DNA of 24,168 nt from Candidatus Thorarchaeota archaeon (GTDB taxonomy: Archaea; Asgardarchaeota; Thorarchaeia; Thorarchaeales; Thorarchaeaceae): NCBI GenBank assembly GCA_048884965.1, contig JBHLQH010000040.1, positions 1-24,168 of the forward strand, in the 5' to 3' direction. Position 1 is the first letter of the stretch; each line of letters opens with the position of its first letter. Below are positions 9,245 through 16,600 of the stretch, piece after piece. A program made the position numbers and the translations under genes. Under the pieces are notes generated by a model. The model did not search any database. It was not told the origin of the DNA and worked only from the letters and a program-made list of their open reading frames with translations.

Positions 9245-11341
9245 TTATGTGAGAAGATGACTGTACAGCTTTTCCAGATTATCCGCTTTCTCATAGAAGC
9301 CGTATTTTCTCCAGCTGCTTGCACTAAGTCTAAGCAGTCTAGAGGCTTGTTCAAAATACTTTGGATTGCCCAAGCGTTCCCAGCTCTTTGATAGGACCCC
9401 TATCAAGGAAGAGCCTGTCACTGCGACCTCATAGTCGTATTTCTGAGGGTTTTGCACGGCAACACGATTGAGGGCAATCACAATCTTCACGACTTTTTGT
9501 AGATCCCACTCACTTAGCATTTCAGCCGCAGACGATGCGTGATAGGTAACAGCCATGATATCATCTCTACAGACCATTCCATGGGAAACGAACCATTCCT
9601 GCACCTCTAAGGATCGAAGGACACATTCTGTGAAGACAGAGTTTCTAATGTTCTCGGAAAGCAGATTGTATGAAAGCGAGGCCAGAGATGTGAGAATGTT
9701 TCCAGTGTTCGTTGCATACATATCCGGGACTGTTTCCCGAGACTCCTCAATAGCTTCTATATCTGTGGTTTTCATTGCTAGGTAATGAAGAATCGCCGCT
9801 TCCTCTCTGAAGACCTGAGCTCTTGTCAGGACAGGTCCTAATGCATTTAGAACAACATAGATTGAGAATCTGACCCTGCTCTTAGCCCATTCTCGTCCAG
9901 AAATATCTATGATATCCTGAAGGAACGTACCTATCTTCTCTAGATGTCTTTCACGTTCCGATCCAGTCGCAAGGTAATAGTACTCGGCATTGGCGACACC
10001 CAGACTTTGAAAGATGCTATCGATAGTATGTTCGAAAATTGGCAGATCATCATGAATTAAGCGTCTGAAATAATAGAAATAGAGCTCTATCACTTCCGTG
10101 AGAACTTCTTTTCGTTCACTTATAGTCAACACTGGTGACTCGGATAATGCAGTAAGCAATGTGATATAGTTCTGCAATTGCAGTGACGCTCGTAATGCGA
10201 GCCCTCTCATTCCTTCGCTCTTTCTCAGACGATGGACCAACCCCTTTTTCAGGACTTGGCGTATCTGCTCAAGAATTCCATCGATTCTGCTCTTATAGAA
10301 ACCAATCGTTTCCTTGAAGTCATCATAGCTTGAAACGGAATAGAGCTTCTCAAATATGGCATCTCTATCCAAAATTGAAAAGATATACGCACGTGCAATT
10401 GGAGAGGTGTCCCTTAGATGGTCTGCAAACCTGTTTGCGAACTCATGTAAGAGTGAAATTCGAACATCGATAAATAGGAATGAATATAGAAGAGTCCGTT
10501 CAGACTGCCCAAAATCGAAAGCTTCTGCAGCAGAGCGAAAAGCATCAGTATATTCAGCACCTGAAATCTCTCCCGAAAGGAATCCAACAATCGCTCGTCC
10601 CAGTCTGCAATAGGGGTCATCGCCTTTAATCCGCATCGCAACCTGCTTCAGATCCTCGATTAGCGGTGCACTCGTGCTGGACATAGAACGTGCTAGCTGG
10701 CCCATCTTTATGGTAAATATGCGGGCCATATCATCTTCTATGCCAAGACTTGCCGCGCAGGCACGATCATACTCCCCGTGTAGTGCAAAAACAAGTCCCT
10801 CGTCAAGGGAGGTTGGTGTCTTCTCTACCAATGCCTTCCATCGAGGACGTAGGTCTGCATTATTCAATCTGTTCTCTAGGACCCTTATCATTGCGTCAAG
10901 TTGTGGATCATTTCGAATCGCATCTAGAATTGGGTTCCATGAGAAGGCAACGATATCAGACAAAGAAATGTTCAGTTTATCACGTATGTAGGTATCAAGG
11001 ACATTGTTGGTAATGGATATGTGAATGTCACTAACGATTCCATCCGCAGGGGGTATCTCTGAATCATCAAGCTCGTCTGCTATGATTCGGAATAAAGTGT
11101 CCATGTAGTCTTCGGCCTTTGTCACAAGGGCTACTATCGTATAGCATTTCTTCGACTCTGTGACAATAAGCGTATTATCCTTGAATGCGAGTTGTTTGAC
11201 TTCACCACTCCCCATTGCGTCGCAGAGGGTCTTTGCCGCAGAAATCAAGGCTCCAATAATCATCTCACTCTCTGTTTCTACATAGCTTCTGATGACGACA
11301 GGCACACCGCCCTCGCTGAGTACACCAAGTAGCCGAATCAT
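9245..11341 (-). CDS. N-terminal longin-like domain fused to a long alpha-helical region
   Basis: MIRLLGVLSEGGVPV..helix IGALISAAKTL..GEVKQLAF....LIV......YTIVALV pattern matches longin topology; remainder looks helical. Confidence 0.6.
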   Translation of the reverse strand: MIRLLGVLSEGGVPVVIRSYVETESEMIIGALISAAKTLCDAMGSGEVKQLAFKDNTLIVTESKKCYTIVALVTKAEDYMDTLFRIIADELDDSEIPPADGIVSDIHISITNNVLDTYIRDKLNISLSDIVAFSWNPILDAIRNDPQLDAMIRVLENRLNNADLRPRWKALVEKTPTSLDEGLVFALHGEYDRACAASLGIEDDMARIFTIKMGQLARSMSSTSAPLIEDLKQVAMRIKGDDPYCRLGRAIVGFLSGEISGAEYTDAFRSAAEAFDFGQSERTLLYSFLFIDVRISLLHEFANRFADHLRDTSPIARAYIFSILDRDAIFEKLYSVSSYDDFKETIGFYKSRIDGILEQIRQVLKKGLVHRLRKSEGMRGLALRASLQLQNYITLLTALSESPVLTISERKEVLTEVIELYFYYFRRLIHDDLPIFEHTIDSIFQSLGVANAEYYYLATGSERERHLEKIGTFLQDIIDISGREWAKSRVRFSIYVVLNALGPVLTRAQVFREEAAILHYLAMKTTDIEAIEESRETVPDMYATNTGNILTSLASLSYNLLSENIRNSVFTECVLRSLEVQEWFVSHGMVCRDDIMAVTYHASSAAEMLSEWDLQKVVKIVIALNRVAVQNPQKYDYEVAVTGSSLIGVLSKSWERLGNPKYFEQASRLLRLSASSWRKYGFYEKADNLEKLYSHLLT

Positions 11342-12080: not shown

Positions 12081-12217
12081 CACTCAAGATGAAGTAAGAT
12101 GGAGTCTAGGTTCAAAATACTCCATTACATAGATTAACTATTGTTGGTGTCCCGAGCAATCGTTAATAGGTGCTTTGAATTGTCTTCTTGAAGAGCATTT
12201 GCAGAGATGAACTGACG

Positions 12218-13087
12218 ATGTGCGAATACTGCTTCAAACATGGATACGGTGCAAAATGGTATGAGAATGCCCGATTGTATTCGAACGACTTGGCTGACGA
12301 GATCCAAGCCCGAGAATATCTAGAAGAGCAATGGCAGAATATGGAAACGCTCTTCATTCGGAAGATTCTGGGATTCAACTCCATTGGACTTGGCTACAAG
12401 ATGCAGATGCCCATCATTGGACGAGTTATTCGATGGGCAGTGGAACGACAGATCCATAGTGAGAGTCCAAAGAGAAATCCTGTAAGGGCGGATGGGCATT
12501 TTGGTCAGGTCATCCCAATGGAAGATGCTCAACACATCTTGGGCAATCTGGCAGCAGAGCCCATTCTAAAGAACTATTGTCTTTGCCGCTATATGCAGCG
12601 AGGCGTGAAGGATGCTGTGTGTATCAATTTCGGACAGCTTTCTGAGATTATTGCCAAGCATGACCGTTACATCCCAAAGGATGAGAAGTACTGGTTGACT
12701 CGCGAGGAAGCCATCGAAGCCTTGGAGCGTCACAACAAGAAAGGGTATGTCGCGTCAGTCTGGTTCCAACCCGTCCCCTACATCAACGCGGTTTGCTCCT
12801 GTGAGAGCCCTGAATGTGGAGGATTGCGACTGCGGAACGACTTTGGTCTGAGAACCGTGTATAAGGGAGAGTATGTCATTGATATTGACATCGATAAGTG
12901 TCAAGGTTGTCAGAGTTGCGTAAAGATGTGTCAATTCAATGCATTGCGATATTTACCATCTGTGAAACGAGTGATCGTTGACCTTGACAAATGCTTTGGA
13001 TGTGGAGTATGCAGACATGCCTGTAACCACGATGCATTGAACCTAGTCCCACGCGAATCTGTTCCTGGTCAAGCTGGTAAGTATTGA
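12218..13087 (+). CDS. 4Fe-4S dicluster protein with Cys-rich N-terminal extension
   Basis: CQGCQSCVKMC and CFGCGVCRHAC; also MCEYC..H, CLC..C, CSC....C; start likely ATG 12218 (ORF track gives 12188). Confidence 0.9.
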   Translation: MCEYCFKHGYGAKWYENARLYSNDLADEIQAREYLEEQWQNMETLFIRKILGFNSIGLGYKMQMPIIGRVIRWAVERQIHSESPKRNPVRADGHFGQVIPMEDAQHILGNLAAEPILKNYCLCRYMQRGVKDAVCINFGQLSEIIAKHDRYIPKDEKYWLTREEAIEALERHNKKGYVASVWFQPVPYINAVCSCESPECGGLRLRNDFGLRTVYKGEYVIDIDIDKCQGCQSCVKMCQFNALRYLPSVKRVIVDLDKCFGCGVCRHACNHDALNLVPRESVPGQAGKY

Positions 13088-13098
13088 GGTGATGGTTA

Positions 13099-13383
13099 TT
13101 GACAAAGAAGACGAAGATAAACATAGATCACTCGAAATGTGGTGTGAATGTAAGTACTGACCCCCGCGATTGCAGGAAATGCCTGTTTGTATGTGATCCC
13201 GCTGTCTTTCTCATGCATCCAACCCTTGAGAAGCACCCTGACCCGCATAACCCAGATAAATGGGTAGTCGACGCAATCTGGCTCTCAAAATGCACTGGTT
13301 GTATGAAGTGCATCAACGCTTGTCCAGAGCAAGCAATAGAGGTCTTTCCAGGAGATTCGCTAGCAGTCATGAGAGGAATCTAG
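13099..13383 (+). CDS. Small ferredoxin-like 4Fe-4S protein
   Basis: CTGCMKCINACP and C-x10-CRKCLFVC; GAGGTGA SD, TTG start. Confidence 0.85.
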   Translation: MTKKTKINIDHSKCGVNVSTDPRDCRKCLFVCDPAVFLMHPTLEKHPDPHNPDKWVVDAIWLSKCTGCMKCINACPEQAIEVFPGDSLAVMRGI

Positions 13384-13387
13384 TCCA

Positions 13388-14347
13388 TCACCTCAGAGTA
13401 GTAATAGGACGTGATTGGAGCACTACGATTTCTCCATCTCCTACACACCACTCGATGTCTTGAGGACATCCCATCTTTTCCTCAATCTCTATTCCAAGTT
13501 CTATGAGATCCCTCAGGATCTCATCTGAAAGCACAAAGGCCTCTCTTTTAGTTAATGGCGTTTCTACGCATAGCGTGCATCCATTACCTTGGATGAAGGT
13601 CGACTCCTTACTACCAAGGGTTCGACTGATAGATGTCATTGTTTCCCTATCCACGACATAGGTATCCGGAACTACCTTTCCACCTACAAGTGCCTCTCCA
13701 AGTCCCCATGTCGCCTCAATGAGCATGTGGTCCATTCTACTATCGATAACATTGGCTGTGAAGAGGACTCCGGAAATCACAGCATCTATCATTTCTTGGA
13801 TTACCACACCCATCCGAATACTGCTCATTGGAATGTCTTTTGTCTTGAGATATATCGCAGATTGGGGGGATATAGCGGATTGCCATACATTCTTCACTGA
13901 AATGAGAACATCCTCTATCTCCTTAACACAGAGGTAGGTATCTGCCTGCCCTGCAAAGGAAAAAGATCTTCCGTCTTCGATTGATGCGGATGAACGAACA
14001 GCATATCCGTATTTTGCGTGAGTTCTGTTTTGAAGCGTTGAGAACATCTCTTGGAGTTCCAAGATCATCCCATTTGGCAGCTTGGATGGAATGAACACTG
14101 CCTGCAAGTTGGCTGCGAGTTCAAGTATCTCCTCAAAATCTTGTGATTCATCTAACTTTATCATTAGTTCCTTCGCTTCTGGGATGCTTTGAATCATCTG
14201 ATGATAATAGACCCCGGAGATTGCAAACCCTCTGGGAACAGTGAAACCATTCCTTTGGAGTATTGAAAGATTTGCAGCCTTGCCACCATAGTTCTGGATC
14301 TCGTCTGGAGAGATTTCATGTAAGAGTCGCATGGATTTGGTGGGCAT
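13388..14347 (-). CDS. Stand-alone PEP synthase/PPDK N-terminal ATP-grasp (nucleotide-binding) domain
   Basis: GGKAANL, AVRSSA..ED....SFAGQ, IQEMI...SGVLFT, WGLGEALVGG...PD, PQDIEW, ends at LQSRPIT; ATG 14347 follows SD AGGTGA (ORF track gives GTG 14356). Confidence 0.92.
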   Translation of the reverse strand: MPTKSMRLLHEISPDEIQNYGGKAANLSILQRNGFTVPRGFAISGVYYHQMIQSIPEAKELMIKLDESQDFEEILELAANLQAVFIPSKLPNGMILELQEMFSTLQNRTHAKYGYAVRSSASIEDGRSFSFAGQADTYLCVKEIEDVLISVKNVWQSAISPQSAIYLKTKDIPMSSIRMGVVIQEMIDAVISGVLFTANVIDSRMDHMLIEATWGLGEALVGGKVVPDTYVVDRETMTSISRTLGSKESTFIQGNGCTLCVETPLTKREAFVLSDEILRDLIELGIEIEEKMGCPQDIEWCVGDGEIVVLQSRPITTLR

Positions 14348-14360
14348 CCTTCTCACCTAC

Positions 14361-14711
14361 CTAGTCAATCACAAATAATGCGCCTTTGACCCCATCTTCA
14401 TGCTTTATCATGACTCGTTTTCCGTTCAATTTTGCTGGCTCATCTATATTCGTCCCCATGAGTGCAGGTATCTCGAATTCCCTTGTCACAATTGCCAAAT
14501 GTGATCCCAATGCACCAGTTTGGCATACTACACCAGCTAGCTTTGGGAGGACTGGAGCAAGAAACGTAGTACCAGCATCATCGACAAGGACAATCTTCCC
14601 ATCTGCTCCTTCTTTAAGTAGATTGATCACTTCTTGTACTGATGTGATGTATCTAATCTCACCCTCTGCGTCGAGCTTCAATGAGATTAGTCCTTGGGCG
14701 ATTCTTTCCAT
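14361..14711 (-). CDS. Stand-alone PEP-utilising enzyme mobile (phospho-His swivel) domain
   Basis: GVVCQTGALGSHLAIVTREFEIPALMG matches G..xSHxAIVxRE.GIP with the His retained. Confidence 0.9.
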   Translation of the reverse strand: MERIAQGLISLKLDAEGEIRYITSVQEVINLLKEGADGKIVLVDDAGTTFLAPVLPKLAGVVCQTGALGSHLAIVTREFEIPALMGTNIDEPAKLNGKRVMIKHEDGVKGALFVID

Positions 14712-14878
14712 TGGTTATAGCTCCCTTGACTTTCGTGCAAACCCGCAACGCTCAATTTAAGCATGCTGTAGATTAGAATAAGTTCGTACAATGTCGATGT
14801 ATTCCTTTCCATTTGCCCGAAGACTTACATAAGGGAGTGTTCAAGCCATAGAGAATTCTGTGATGGTGAGTTAGCATA

Positions 14879-16036
14879 ATGGAAGTAAGAGAGGTTAACA
14901 AATACCTTCGCCATGTTTCTGATGTCTTCAGTGACATTCTTGCGGAACGAGGACTTCTGGAAAGTAAGCTCTTTCCAGTCAACGAGTACATCAGCGTGTC
15001 ATGTTTCCATACCTACGAATACCTGTATCCGCTCATGAAACTAGTCTGGGATCGAATTACTCCTGAGGAACTAGCGAAACAGAGCAAGACGCTCCTGTCG
15101 GAGGTCCATGCGCTTTCTATCACATACCAGTGGCTGTACTATGGCCTTGGTCGAATGGGAATGGTGTTCAACAAGTATGAGAGCGACCCCTCGAATGAAC
15201 CTGCGGAGAAAAGAGAGCAGTGGAAGTATATCCTCGAGAACTGGTACCGACTTGCCACTTCTTATTTTAACTCCGGAAAACATACTGTTGCTGCATCGGA
15301 TGGAAAGAATCTCGCATTCACTGATGAAACTGTGTCTTGGCTGAAAGACAACCTACAACCAGTGAATGAGGATCAAGTAAAGGCTATGCGTAGGAACATA
15401 GGATCTGTGGAACTGTATGCTTTCTTGGATGAATGTGAGGCTAGAGCTAAACTAATCGATCATGGACCCTATCAGTATAGCGGTGATGAGATTCTTGTCA
15501 TATCCGAATTCACCAGATTATGGGACGGCAAGGGTGAGCCATGGTTGCCATGGTCAAATACAGAAGCACAACTACCATCCTCGAAGCTTGGAGTTGCTTT
15601 TACCATCAAGAATGCTACTGCCTTCTTCAATGATATCGGCACTATGACCATCGAGCCCGGGGATTATTCCTCTCACGTTACGAATGCCTGTGCCTTTGCG
15701 AACCGCGGGGATAAGGTGGTATCGATTGGTCTTGATGAGCTTTCTACCTATGCAGATGCTGCTAATGCTGCCCAGACAGAGCTCTACATGAAATTCGCAG
15801 ATTGGGATAAGAAGAAGCTGATGCTAGCAGGAGCTCTTGCATATTGGCGAGGATTCGTTCGGTTCACTGATAGAGTCGGAGTGACAGACAAGATAGAGTG
15901 GGCTATTGCAAAGCACATAGAGGATGAGCATGTACCCTTCTTTATGGAGAATGATGCCGACCCTGCATTCATAAGATTCGGTCGATTCGATGATGAAATG
16001 GAAGAAGATCCCACACTATATCTGCTACCAGAATAG
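14879..16036 (+). CDS. Uncharacterised 385-aa soluble protein, candidate acceptor-binding subunit of the split dikinase
   Basis: Long ORF with GGTGA SD; divergent from the swivel/ATP-grasp genes; function inferred only from context. Confidence 0.6.
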   Translation: MEVREVNKYLRHVSDVFSDILAERGLLESKLFPVNEYISVSCFHTYEYLYPLMKLVWDRITPEELAKQSKTLLSEVHALSITYQWLYYGLGRMGMVFNKYESDPSNEPAEKREQWKYILENWYRLATSYFNSGKHTVAASDGKNLAFTDETVSWLKDNLQPVNEDQVKAMRRNIGSVELYAFLDECEARAKLIDHGPYQYSGDEILVISEFTRLWDGKGEPWLPWSNTEAQLPSSKLGVAFTIKNATAFFNDIGTMTIEPGDYSSHVTNACAFANRGDKVVSIGLDELSTYADAANAAQTELYMKFADWDKKKLMLAGALAYWRGFVRFTDRVGVTDKIEWAIAKHIEDEHVPFFMENDADPAFIRFGRFDDEMEEDPTLYLLPE

Positions 16037-16047
16037 GGAGCCTGTTC

Positions 16048-16584
16048 ATGATGGAACCAAGTGAGATACTAATTCAGGTTGGACGGGCAAGAGACCTCTA
16101 TAATAGAGGACTGCAGATGAAAGATCCTGCCGCTTTTGAAGAATCACTATCAATCTCTTTGAGTCTTCGCAAGTTAATTGATTCCTCAGATAAGGAGGAA
16201 CTTGCCAAGGAAATCAACCAATTCGAGCATCTTGATGGTGGCTTGAATGCCCATATCTTCAATTGTATGAAACTGCTTGGTCGCTATGAAGATATCCTAC
16301 CCTATCTGGAGAGAACGCTTCAGTATCTCAATAACGATAGAAACCCAGATCTCTGGCGCCAACTTGGATTGCTATATCTTGTGCAAAAGAAAGACTTGGA
16401 GAAGGCAGTTGAAGCATGGAAAAAGGCAATAGAACTCGATTCATCGTTCCTAGAACGGTTTCCAGGTCTTAATGTAGTCTATACCTATACTGCACTAAAA
16501 TCAACAGGAAAACACGTGAGCTGGAAAGTCATTCATGCTGATCTCGAAACAGGTGAGTTCTCTGTTTCAATTGGGACAGACTAA
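16048..16584 (+). CDS. TPR-repeat protein
   Basis: PDLWRQLGLLYL....LEKAVEAWKKAIELD TPR consensus. Confidence 0.8.
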   Translation: MMEPSEILIQVGRARDLYNRGLQMKDPAAFEESLSISLSLRKLIDSSDKEELAKEINQFEHLDGGLNAHIFNCMKLLGRYEDILPYLERTLQYLNNDRNPDLWRQLGLLYLVQKKDLEKAVEAWKKAIELDSSFLERFPGLNVVYTYTALKSTGKHVSWKVIHADLETGEFSVSIGTD

Positions 16585-16600
16585 GTCTGGAGTGGTATCT

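What the first reader, a model, noticed from the sequence alone, without database searches (positions are those of the whole stretch)
14879..16036. Unknown 385-aa protein as the missing acceptor-binding third subunit
Seen: transcribed divergently from the swivel gene across 167 nt; soluble, aromatic-rich, with motif-like segments ERGLLESKLFPV and YAFLDECEAR...DHGPY. Its size suits a substrate-binding domain. From memory and unverified, similar sequences occur beside stand-alone PEP-utiliser mobile domains in bacteria. Inference: specificity subunit of an undescribed three-component kinase.
Basis: inference. Interest (0 to 1): 0.75.

Follow-up and report, generated by a model that had tools for sequence, protein, structure and literature searches.

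The report
New-fold partner of split phospho-histidine kinase
This Asgard archaeal gene encodes a conserved protein with no detectable structural relative that most likely holds the molecule phosphorylated by a three-protein, ATP-driven phospho-histidine relay, next to a relative of a phosphate-removing lyase; the gene set has not been studied.

Summary
ORF 14879-16036 (+) encodes a soluble 385-aa protein (P0001), 167 nt from and divergent to a 116-aa phospho-His swivel gene, which is followed by a stand-alone ATP-grasp gene.

P0001 matches no Pfam or NCBIfam model. Its AlphaFold model is very confident (pLDDT 96), yet no solved structure resembles it, including the rifampin-binding domain.

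- In 201 Asgard genomes, the stand-alone swivel occurs only in genomes that carry P0001 (49 of 52 against 0 of 149). It always lies within about 6 kb of a P0001-family gene.
- Swivel and P0001-like domains are fused in Actinomycetes, for example in a Gordonia 575-aa protein.
- A complex prediction passed with controls. It places the swivel stretch containing His71 on P0001's conserved, arginine-rich face.

The module has a fourth part. P0001 is next to a DUF7065/DUF7064 (Rv3169-family) protein in nearly every locus examined, in archaea and in Actinomycetes. That protein is a homologue of 25-phosphosteroid lyase.

Best reading: ATP-grasp, swivel and P0001 phosphorylate an unreactive hydroxyl group, and the lyase homologue expels the phosphate, giving an ATP-driven dehydration. 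The substrate is unknown.

This scan reached the same reading earlier for the same module in other Asgard genomes.

The parts
14879..16036 (+). P0001, 385 aa. It belongs to an uncharacterised family with no Pfam or NCBIfam model and is the proposed acceptor-binding and phosphotransfer subunit.
   Evidence: AF2 model pLDDT 96.4. No PDB relative found. Predicted to bind the swivel through its conserved face R24/R172/E187/R189/Y303.
14361..14711 (-). P0002, 116 aa. Stand-alone PEP-utilizers phospho-His swivel domain with invariant His71 in a G-[SA]-H motif.
   Evidence: PF00391 E 1.1e-10. His71 is invariant in 27 homologues. It occurs only in genomes that carry P0001.
13388..14356 (-). P0003, 322 aa. 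Stand-alone PPDK_N ATP-grasp nucleotide-binding domain, 4 nt downstream of the swivel gene.
   Evidence: PF01326 E 1e-74. It aligns to the N-terminal 310-340 positions of the PEP synthase, rifampin phosphotransferase and PigC models. It is conserved beside the swivel in other loci.
14712..14878 (.). 167-nt divergent intergenic region between the swivel/ATP-grasp operon and the P0001 operon.
   Evidence: No inverted repeat was found.
16601..17482 (+). P0005, DUF7065/DUF7064 (Rv3169-family) protein and homologue of 25-phosphosteroid lyase. The ORF opens at 16535, but homology begins at the ATG at 16601.
   Evidence: Pfam and NCBIfam. AF2 pLDDT 89.5. Foldseek top hits are 25-PSL 9g4c/9g2i/9fzn, E 3.6e-14, TMq 0.71. 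The family profile hits the 25-PSL sequence at E 3e-9. The homology match begins at 16601.
16048..16584 (+). P0004, a 178-aa TPR-like protein inserted between P0001 and P0005. It was found only in this window among the loci compared.
   Evidence: Weak TPR hits below the Pfam cut-offs. No tblastn match in 29 other Asgard loci.
12188..13383 (+). Fe-S pair: a 299-aa protein with a C-terminal 2x[4Fe-4S] domain (12188-13087) and a 94-aa ferredoxin-like protein (13099-13383). They are recurrent neighbours and possibly accessory.
   Evidence: Fer4 hits. The same pair lies next to the module in L035 and L037, which belong to other Asgard families.

Best explanation
P0001 is the third, substrate-side subunit of a split phospho-histidine dikinase-type enzyme. 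That enzyme is coupled to a phosphate lyase.

Proposed steps:
1. The ATP-grasp protein (P0003) binds ATP and loads His71 of the free swivel protein (P0002). As in PEP synthase, PpsAB, HpeHI and rifampin phosphotransferase, this probably gives AMP + Pi + His~P. This step is inferred from family membership.
2. The loaded swivel docks on the conserved arginine-rich face of P0001 (R24, R172, E187, R189, Y303). Docking is predicted, not measured.
3. The phosphoryl group passes to a hydroxyl group of a substrate held by P0001. This step is inferred.
4. The adjacent 25-phosphosteroid-lyase homologue (P0005) eliminates the phosphate. The net result is an ATP-driven dehydration, or a related carbocation-type reaction, of an unreactive and possibly tertiary or isoprenoid alcohol. 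This step is inferred from homology and gene linkage.

P0001 takes the role that the rifampin-binding-like domain plays in known small-molecule dikinases, but no likeness to that domain was detected.
For: Gene linkage:
- In 30 Asgard loci P0001 homologues lie next to a P0005 homologue. Most also lie next to the swivel and ATP-grasp genes, in at least four different gene orders: divergent, co-directional, tandem duplicated swivel-P0001 pairs, and separated by 1-6 kb.

Phyletic profile in one sample of 201 Asgard genomes:
- P0001 occurs in 52 genomes.
- A strong P0005-like gene occurs in 51 of these 52 and in 2 others.
- The stand-alone swivel occurs in 49, all of them among the 52, and in none of the 149 P0001-negative genomes.
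- The swivel always lies on the same contig, within about 6 kb of a P0001-family gene.
- The five Asgard families that carry it show the same patchy pattern for all three genes.

Gene fusions:
- P0150 (516 aa, metagenome) and P0184 (575 aa, Gordonia otitidis, WP_007239118.1) have an N-terminal PF00391 swivel followed by a P0001-like domain.
- Actinomycete loci hold three swivel plus P0001-like units each. They are followed by an Rv3169-family gene (E 3e-118), the same family as P0005, with a PPDK_N-plus-swivel protein nearby.
- A Nitrososphaerota-like contig has a swivel gene directly upstream of a P0001-like gene.

Predicted complex of P0001 with P0002:
- ipSAE 0.76 (median of 0.84, 0.76 and 0.68); the best of 3 controls scored 0.00.
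- In the tool's calibration this mark was reached by 58 of 80 solved complexes and 2 of 110 mismatched pairs. These counts hold only roughly here, because my own alignments were used.
- The runs agree in at least 88% of contacts, and the partner's pLDDT is at least 87.
- No similar complex has been solved, so a pass from memory is unlikely.
- The interface includes swivel residues 65-71, the stretch with His71. Of its 34 P0001 residues, 14 are conserved positions, against 4.7 expected (P 2.9e-5).

Lyase homologue:
- P0005 resembles 25-phosphosteroid lyase by fold (E 3.6e-14, TMq 0.71) and by sequence profile (E 3e-9).
- 25-PSL works with a kinase as an ATP-dependent dehydratase (PMC8449060, PMC11061730).

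Fused counterpart in the same genome:
- Contig C13 carries a 905-aa rifampin-phosphotransferase-type kinase (ATP-grasp, middle domain, swivel).
- It is followed 7 nt later by a 322-aa Rv3169-like protein.

Conserved residues:
- Five conserved arginines in P0001 (R24, R92, R124, R172, R189) suit the binding of a phosphoryl group or an anion.
Against: No substrate, pocket or catalytic residue of P0001 was shown. Its fold gives no functional hint.

Three loci (L031, L032, L035) have P0001 and P0005 with no swivel or ATP-grasp within 6 kb. In those genomes the swivel sits beside a paralogous P0001/P0005 pair.

Actinomycete clusters carry a PPDK_N protein with its own fused swivel as well as three swivel plus P0001-like units. 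A simple donor-swivel-acceptor scheme does not explain this.

The known 25-hydroxysteroid kinase is an unrelated, ADP-forming, single-protein enzyme that is not linked to its lyase. The analogy is therefore functional only (PMC8449060).

The 25-PSL/AttH superfamily also contains hydratases and pericyclases, so phosphate elimination by P0005 is not certain.

Related genomes are not independent observations, and interface conservation can partly reflect structural clustering of conserved residues.
Confidence: 0.62

Rival explanations
1. P0001 is an adaptor or regulator of the swivel protein rather than the acceptor-binding subunit. It would dock His71~P and present it to P0005 (or another protein) that holds the substrate. 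Alternatively it would control the phosphorylation state of the swivel, as PEP synthase and PPDK regulatory proteins do.
For: The predicted interface is with the swivel itself and covers the His71 stretch. P0005 is the most constant neighbour and, from its homology to 25-PSL, should bind a phosphoester. No pocket in P0001 was demonstrated.
Against: The swivel has Gly, not the regulatory Thr, two residues before His71 (compare PMC12167813). A 385-aa protein that is 57-91% identical across Asgard orders, with many conserved Arg, Tyr and Trp residues outside the interface (R92, R124, H195-Y198, W225, W309, Y322), is more than an adaptor would need. In the fused counterpart on contig C13 this position is held by a substrate-binding domain.
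Confidence: 0.15
2. P0001 is a phosphoryl-donor-side domain. It would bind an alternative donor (PEP, polyphosphate, acyl phosphate or a phosphoester) and load the swivel, or it would run a phosphoester-to-phosphoester exchange.
For: Actinomycete clusters already have a PPDK_N protein with its own swivel, plus three extra swivel plus P0001-like units. Some Asgard loci have P0001 and P0005 without an ATP-grasp gene nearby. HpeH alone catalyses phosphate exchange between phosphoester and phenol (PMC12167813).
Against: In the window and most Asgard loci a dedicated ATP-grasp gene is co-transcribed with the swivel, which accounts for the donor side. No nucleotide- or PEP-binding family or fold was detected in P0001.
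Confidence: 0.08
3. P0001 and P0005 form a kinase-independent two-protein enzyme, for example a hydratase, cyclase or isomerase of a lipophilic compound. Proximity to the split kinase would then reflect only a shared pathway.
For: The P0001-P0005 pair is the tightest linkage and occurs without swivel or ATP-grasp in L031, L032 and L035. AttH-family relatives of P0005 are cofactor-free hydratases and pericyclases (bioRxiv 10.1101/2025.10.20.683597).
Against: Swivel and P0001-like domains are fused in bacteria. The swivel was found in none of the P0001-negative genomes searched. The complex prediction passed with controls at 0.00. The closest solved relative of P0005 is specifically the phosphate lyase.
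Confidence: 0.08

Closest known systems
Two-component small-molecule dikinases HpeHI, CreHI and phenylphosphate synthase PpsAB, and the fused rifampin phosphotransferase RPH and PigC/RedH (PMC12167813, PMC4844700)
   Same: An ATP-grasp (PPDK_N) domain and a phospho-His swivel domain, with no PEP/pyruvate TIM barrel. The ATP-grasp is a separate protein, as in HpeI and PpsB. The swivel is expected to shuttle between an ATP site and a second substrate site. A small-molecule hydroxyl group is the likely acceptor.
   Different: In the known enzymes the swivel is fused to the C-terminus of a rifampin-binding-like substrate domain. Here the swivel is a free 116-aa protein. The candidate substrate subunit (P0001) shows no detectable sequence or fold likeness to that domain. 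Where P0001-like domains are fused to a swivel (Actinomycetes), the order is swivel first. The module is coupled to a lyase homologue, which is not part of the Hpe, Cre or Pps systems.
25-hydroxysteroid kinase plus 25-phosphosteroid lyase of Sterolibacterium denitrificans, an ATP-dependent dehydratase (PMC8449060, PMC7411048, PMC11061730; PDB 9fzn, 9g2i, 9g4c)
   Same: A kinase paired with a phosphate-eliminating C-O lyase. P0005 is a sequence and fold homologue of 25-PSL. The proposed net reaction, ATP-driven removal of an unreactive hydroxyl group, is the same.
   Different: 25-HSK is a single, ADP-forming kinase with a ternary-complex mechanism. It is unrelated to PEP-utilising enzymes and is not encoded next to its lyase (PMC8449060). 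Here the kinase side is a three-protein phospho-His relay and is tightly linked to the lyase homologue. The host is an anaerobic Asgard archaeon, and the substrate is unlikely to be a steroid.
PEP synthase and pyruvate phosphate dikinase
   Same: Homologous ATP-grasp and swivel domains, and the same expected His~P chemistry.
   Different: P0001 is not the PEP/pyruvate-binding TIM barrel (no Pfam hit). The genome has a separate full-length PPDK-type gene on contig C32.
AttH/CrtC-type hydratases, including the archaeal hydroxy-GDGT synthase Hgs (bioRxiv 10.1101/2025.10.20.683597; PDB 2ich, 7a0q)
   Same: P0005 shares the double beta-barrel fold. These enzymes act at tertiary carbons of isoprenoids, which hints at the substrate class.
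   Different: They need no kinase. P0005 is closer to 25-PSL (E 3.6e-14 against 2.8e-9) and belongs to DUF7065/DUF7064 (Rv3169 family), not to the AttH Pfam families.

Membership tests
RPH / HpeH / PpsA-type small-molecule dikinases | PPDK_N ATP-grasp nucleotide-binding domain | tested here: met
   The neighbouring gene P0003 matches PF01326 at E 1e-74. This feature belongs to the module, not to P0001 itself.
RPH / HpeH / PpsA-type small-molecule dikinases | Phospho-His swivel domain with a conserved catalytic His | tested here: met
   P0002 matches PF00391 at E 1.1e-10. His71 is invariant in 27 homologues. It is a free protein here, not fused to the substrate domain.
RPH / HpeH / PpsA-type small-molecule dikinases | Substrate-binding domain homologous to the rifampin-binding domain | tested here: inconclusive
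   P0001 has no NCBIfam hit to the RPH, PRK06241 or PRK08296 models at E <= 0.01. hhalign of the P0001 family against the genome's own 905-aa RPH-type protein gives probability 0.2%. Foldseek found no PDB match at E <= 0.001. VIA-align found none at Z >= 5 among 48,161 chains, and the best Z in the second look was 4.3. No likeness was found, but a missing fold match does not exclude it, and residues 1-135 were barely tested.
RPH / HpeH / PpsA-type small-molecule dikinases | Dikinase chemistry (ATP to AMP + Pi + phosphorylated acceptor through His~P) | not testable with these tools
   This needs enzyme assays.
PEP synthase / PPDK | C-terminal PEP/pyruvate-binding TIM barrel (PEP-utilizers_C) | tested here: not met
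   Neither P0001 nor any gene of the module has a Pfam hit to it. The P0001 model is a helical bundle plus a 7-stranded sheet, not a TIM barrel.
Kinase plus 25-phosphosteroid-lyase type ATP-dependent dehydratase | Lyase subunit homologous to 25-PSL | tested here: met
   P0005 by Foldseek: 9g4c_B E 3.6e-14, TMq 0.71. Family profile against the 9fzn sequence: E 3e-9, with shared H..YYFN and G.RD.SWG.R motifs.
Kinase plus 25-phosphosteroid-lyase type ATP-dependent dehydratase | Kinase homologous to 25-HSK | not tested
The paper describes it as a single ADP-forming kinase with little similarity to known phosphotransferases (PMC8449060), which differs in kind from this three-protein relay.
Kinase plus 25-phosphosteroid-lyase type ATP-dependent dehydratase | Phosphoester intermediate eliminated to an alkene | not testable with these tools
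   This needs biochemistry.
ChpXY / CupA CO2-hydration proteins (lead from the ESM Atlas) | Match to PF10216 | tested here: not met
   The Atlas feature score was 0.90 with only 152 shared features. There was no Pfam hit at E <= 0.01.

The most novel reading that the evidence does not exclude
P0001 defines a new protein fold that receives phosphate from a free phospho-histidine carrier. With the ATP-grasp protein and the 25-PSL-like lyase it forms an undescribed four-protein 'dikinase-dehydratase' that removes unreactive hydroxyl groups without oxygen or radicals, possibly tertiary hydroxyl groups on isoprenoid lipids. The system would be shared by Asgard and other archaea and, in fused form, by Actinomycetes.
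Probability: 0.3. Interest if true: 0.85.

Novelty: new variant of a known kind. Interest (0 to 1): 0.72.

Why it matters
Swivel-histidine dikinases are known with only two kinds of second-substrate domain: the PEP/pyruvate barrel and the rifampin-binding-like domain. A third, structurally unrelated partner domain would widen this enzyme class, especially with the phosphate carrier as a free protein.

Coupling to a homologue of 25-phosphosteroid lyase suggests that ATP-driven dehydration, known so far from one bacterial sterol pathway, is a more general anaerobic strategy. It would extend to Asgard archaea, the closest known prokaryotic relatives of eukaryotes.

The family is large (164 clusters at 50% identity), has no Pfam or NCBIfam model and no solved structure, and is readily testable with four small soluble proteins.

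Tried and rejected

- The search for related loci with the wide alignment A1 failed because no conserved 7-10-column stretch exists.
- The search for fused forms longer than 675 aa found none, which is weak evidence.

**Searches for relatives of P0001**
- The PDB sequence profile search gave only MbnC at E 0.13, which is not significant.
- Foldseek on the PDB gave a best E of 0.17 with TM about 0.1.
- VIA-align wide gave a best Z of 4.7, and the second look gave 4.3, to HIV Vif, with no biological sense.
- Rifampin phosphotransferase, PEP synthase, PPDK and terpene synthases did not appear in any of these lists.
- The Atlas leads ChpXY (0.90) and terpene synthase (0.88) were not supported by Pfam or by fold search.
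- hhalign of the P0001 family against the genome's own RPH-type 905-aa protein gave probability 0.2%.

**Long bacterial relatives**
- The C-terminal extensions of P0217 (Burkholderia ambifaria, 726 aa), P0240 and P0169 matched neither the P0005 profile nor the swivel profile and have no Pfam domain.

**Other**
- No inverted repeat was found in the 167-nt divergent promoter region.
- Literature on DUF7065, DUF7064 and Rv3169 gave no functional study, and the paper describing the 25-PSL structures was not in the library.
- The metagenome scan with the Nitrososphaerota-type relative returned a single short contig.
Full report
**1. Observation**

The window belongs to an Asgard (Thorarchaeota-type) genome: contig C40 of a 4.09-Mb assembly that is 95.7% complete.

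ORF 14879-16036 (+) encodes 385 aa (P0001). The quoted motifs lie at residues 23, 180 and 194.

Upstream, 167 nt away on the opposite strand, lies a 116-aa gene (14361-14711, P0002). It matches the PEP-utilizers swivel domain (PF00391, E 1.1e-10). Four nucleotides after it comes a 322-aa gene (13388-14356, P0003) that matches the PPDK_N ATP-grasp domain (PF01326, E 1e-74) and nothing else.

P0001 has no Pfam or NCBIfam match.

**2. P0001 is a real, conserved family without a known fold**

- The word-indexed search found 281 relatives. Most are 385-390 aa and 57-91% identical, from Thor-, Hod- and Promethearchaeota and Methanomethylicia, and all are annotated 'hypothetical'.
- An exhaustive HMMER search of 1.84 billion cluster representatives found 164 clusters. 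Named members come from Nitrososphaerota, Bathyarchaeia, Gordonia and Burkholderia.
- In an 84-sequence alignment, R189 and G196 are invariant. R24, P197, Y198 and G318 are at least 90% conserved. R92, R124, R172, E187, H195, E210, W225, Y303, W309 and Y322 are also well conserved.
- AlphaFold2 gives a very confident model (pLDDT 96.4, pTM 0.93). It has an N-terminal helical bundle, a seven-stranded sheet (residues 192-283) and C-terminal helices.
- No solved structure resembles it. Foldseek's best E is 0.17. VIA-align against 48,161 representative chains finds none with Z >= 5, and the second look gives a best Z of 4.3. A PDB sequence profile search found nothing significant.
- In particular, rifampin phosphotransferase did not appear. 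Its rifampin-binding domain is the substrate domain of all characterised small-molecule dikinases, and HpeH aligns to it over 473 residues (PMC12167813).
- hhalign of the family against this genome's own 905-aa RPH-type protein gives probability 0.2%.
- Caveat: residues 1-135 were barely covered by the fold comparisons, and a missing match does not prove a new fold.

**3. Linkage to the swivel and ATP-grasp genes**

*Gene order.* tblastn on 30 Asgard loci shows several arrangements:
- In the window's own family, 17 loci have the same arrangement as the window: ATP-grasp and swivel on one strand, P0001 divergent from them.
- A second family has lyase-like, swivel and P0001 genes in one direction.
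- A third has P0001 without a swivel within 1.5 kb.

Longer stretches add more arrangements:
- a swivel directly upstream of a 458-aa P0001 variant;
- two tandem swivel-P0001 pairs (L038);
- cases where the swivel and ATP-grasp genes lie 1-6 kb away.

*Phyletic profile.* The same sample of 201 Asgard genomes was searched three times.

| Gene | Genomes with it | Overlap with the 52 P0001-positive genomes |
|---|---|---|
| P0001 family | 52 | - |
| Strong P0005-like gene (E < 1e-70) | 53 | 51 of 52, plus 2 others |
| Stand-alone swivel of this type (open frame 116-153 aa) | 49 | all 49 |

- None of the 149 P0001-negative genomes has the swivel.
- The three P0001-positive genomes without a swivel are a fragmentary hit and two assemblies that are 72% and 77% complete.
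- By comparing coordinates, every one of the 49 swivels lies on the same contig, within about 6 kb of a P0001-family gene.
- Within the window's own family the trio is present in the same 18 of 43 genomes, which suggests joint gain or loss. Related genomes are not independent, so I give no formal statistic.

*Fusions.* Two clusters carry an N-terminal swivel fused to a P0001-like domain: P0150 (516 aa, metagenomes) and P0184 (575 aa, Gordonia otitidis WP_007239118.1, annotated 'PEP-utilizing enzyme').

A Nitrososphaerota-like contig has a swivel gene 33 nt upstream of a P0001-like gene.

*Other dikinase genes.* The genome also has a PPDK-type gene (C32) and an RPH-type gene (C13). The split pair is therefore an extra system, not a broken housekeeping gene.

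**4. Predicted docking**

The P0001 and P0002 alignments were co-folded.
- The score (ipSAE) was 0.76, the median of 0.84, 0.76 and 0.68. The best of three controls scored 0.00.
- In the tool's calibration this mark was reached by 58 of 80 solved complexes and 2 of 110 mismatched pairs. These counts hold only roughly here because my own alignments were used.
- The runs agree in at least 88% of contacts, and the partner's pLDDT is at least 87.
- P0001 has no detectable solved relative, so a pass from memory is unlikely. The model supports binding but does not show it.
- The interface contains swivel residues 43-50 and 65-71 (His71 is residue 71). On P0001 it contains R24, L27, S29, L31, F32, R172, G175, F182, L183, E187, R189, T255, Y303 and A307.
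- Of 34 interface residues, 14 are among the 53 best-conserved positions, against 4.7 expected (hypergeometric P 2.9e-5).
Which P0001 residues touch His71 itself was not listed.

**5. The fourth component**

The most constant neighbour of P0001 is the gene at 16535/16601-17482 (P0005; DUF7065 + DUF7064, Rv3169 family). It is present in nearly all 40 Asgard loci examined, usually 3-40 nt downstream. In the same-genus genome G164 it lies 4.3 kb downstream of P0001.

- Its AlphaFold model (pLDDT 89.5) is a double beta-barrel.
- Foldseek's top hits are the three 2026 entries of 25-phosphosteroid lyase (9g4c_B E 3.6e-14, TMq 0.71). These rank ahead of AttH (2ich, 2.8e-9), kievitone hydratase and fungal pericyclases.
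- The family profile also finds the 25-PSL sequence at E 3e-9, with shared H..YYFN and G.RD.SWG.R motifs that are invariant in the P0005 family.
- 25-PSL eliminates phosphate from a tertiary 25-phosphosteroid that a kinase has made. Together the two enzymes act as an ATP-dependent dehydratase (PMC7411048, PMC8449060, PMC11061730).

Two further observations tie swivel kinases to this lyase family:
- In the actinomycete loci the gene right after the swivel-P0001 fusion is an Rv3169-family protein (E 3e-118).
- On contig C13 of this genome, a fused 905-aa RPH/PRK06241-type kinase is followed 7 nt later by a 322-aa Rv3169-like paralogue, and then by a histidine-phosphatase-like gene. Similar ~320-aa paralogues occur in many of the sampled genomes, though their neighbours were not checked.

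The window's module therefore looks like a split version of that pair, with P0001 in place of the middle, substrate-binding domain.

**6. Mechanism**

- *Shown by computation:* the domain identities, the linkage, the fusions, the predicted docking and the homology of the lyase.
- *Inferred from family knowledge:* ATP + His71 gives His~P (+ AMP + Pi), as in PEP synthase, PpsAB, HpeHI and RPH (PMC12167813, PMC4844700).
- *Inferred:* the phosphoryl group passes to a hydroxyl group of a substrate held by P0001, and P0005 then eliminates phosphate.
[quoted passage not shown] A dikinase that spends two anhydride bonds would make such a phosphorylation irreversible.

The substrate is unknown. The hints are weak:
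- the AttH/25-PSL superfamily acts at tertiary isoprenoid carbons;
- neighbours in various loci include MFS transporters, a recurrent Fe-S protein pair, a DSP-type phosphatase, HGD-D-like proteins and B12-radical-SAM genes;
- the actinomycete clusters add a PPDK_N-swivel protein, a biotin carboxylase set, a CoA ligase, a thiolase and a phosphatase/SRPBCC protein. This resembles catabolic logic of the Hpe type, meaning phosphorylation, carboxylation and dephosphorylation (PMC12167813).

**7. Rivals**

P0001 could be:
- an adaptor or regulator of the swivel (0.15);
- a donor-side domain (0.08);
- part of a kinase-independent pair with P0005 (0.08).

Some facts keep these open: three loci lack a nearby swivel, and the actinomycete architecture includes a PPDK_N protein with its own swivel plus three extra swivel-P0001 units. 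The fusions, the exclusive co-occurrence and the fused counterpart on C13 favour the acceptor-subunit reading (0.62).

**8. Comparison and novelty**

The module works like the two-component small-molecule dikinases and like the kinase-plus-25-PSL dehydratase. It is not a plain member of either group:
- the swivel is free;
- no likeness between the candidate substrate subunit and the rifampin-binding domain could be detected;
- the kinase is unrelated to 25-HSK.

I class it as a new variant of a known kind.

Earlier follow-ups in this scan reached the same reading on other Asgard genomes. I saw those notes only after my own tests. They are not independent evidence.

Noticed in passing
G000 contig C13, locus L075:3379-7772: The same genome has a fused 905-aa rifampin-phosphotransferase/PRK06241-type kinase (ATP-grasp, middle domain, C-terminal swivel). 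It is followed 7 nt later by a 322-aa Rv3169-like (25-PSL/AttH-fold family) protein and then by a histidine-phosphatase-like gene. This looks like a fused counterpart of the window's split module. Similar ~320-aa paralogues occur in many of the sampled Asgard genomes, but their neighbours were not checked.
   Followed up: partly
L050-L064, L073, L074 (Gordonia, Nocardia, Rhodococcus, Pseudonocardia, Geodermatophilus and related genomes): Actinomycete clusters hold three swivel plus P0001-like units (fused or adjacent) and an Rv3169-family gene. They also hold a 580-aa PPDK_N+swivel protein without a TIM barrel, BCCP, biotin carboxylase, a carboxyltransferase, a thiolase, a Tyr-phosphatase/SRPBCC fusion, an AMP-binding ligase and a LuxR regulator. 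This looks like an undescribed catabolic pathway with phosphorylation and carboxylation steps.
   Followed up: partly
window 12188-13383: An Fe-S pair (a 299-aa protein with an unassigned N-terminal 225 aa plus a 2x[4Fe-4S] domain, and a 94-aa ferredoxin-like protein) recurs next to the module in two other Asgard families (L035, L037). First-stage notes on other genomes mention it too. Its role is unknown.
   Followed up: partly
window 16048-16584: A 178-aa TPR-like gene is wedged between P0001 and the lyase homologue only in this window. In the other Asgard loci compared, apart from G164, the two genes are almost contiguous. In the same-genus genome G164 they are 4.3 kb apart.
   Followed up: partly
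window 16535-16601: The ORF of the lyase homologue opens at 16535 and overlaps the TPR gene, but homology begins at the ATG at 16601. The real start is probably 16601, 16 nt after the TPR stop codon.
   Followed up: yes
L039:11576-16707 and L037:22-1701: Three tandem B12-binding radical-SAM genes flank the module in one Asgard family, and one such gene is present in another. Enzymes of this class desaturate and methylate archaeal tetraether lipids, and an AttH-like hydratase acts after them (bioRxiv 10.1101/2025.10.20.683597). This is a lead towards a lipid substrate.
   Followed up: no
L033:8406-8852, L034:8411-8869: A dual-specificity/Tyr-phosphatase-like gene directly follows the lyase homologue in the paralogous module of one Asgard genus. 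Phosphatase genes also sit in the actinomycete clusters and after the fused kinase on C13.
   Followed up: no
window 9245-11341: A 698-aa protein on the minus strand has no Pfam or NCBIfam match. Another first-stage note calls it longin-like. I did not examine it.
   Followed up: no
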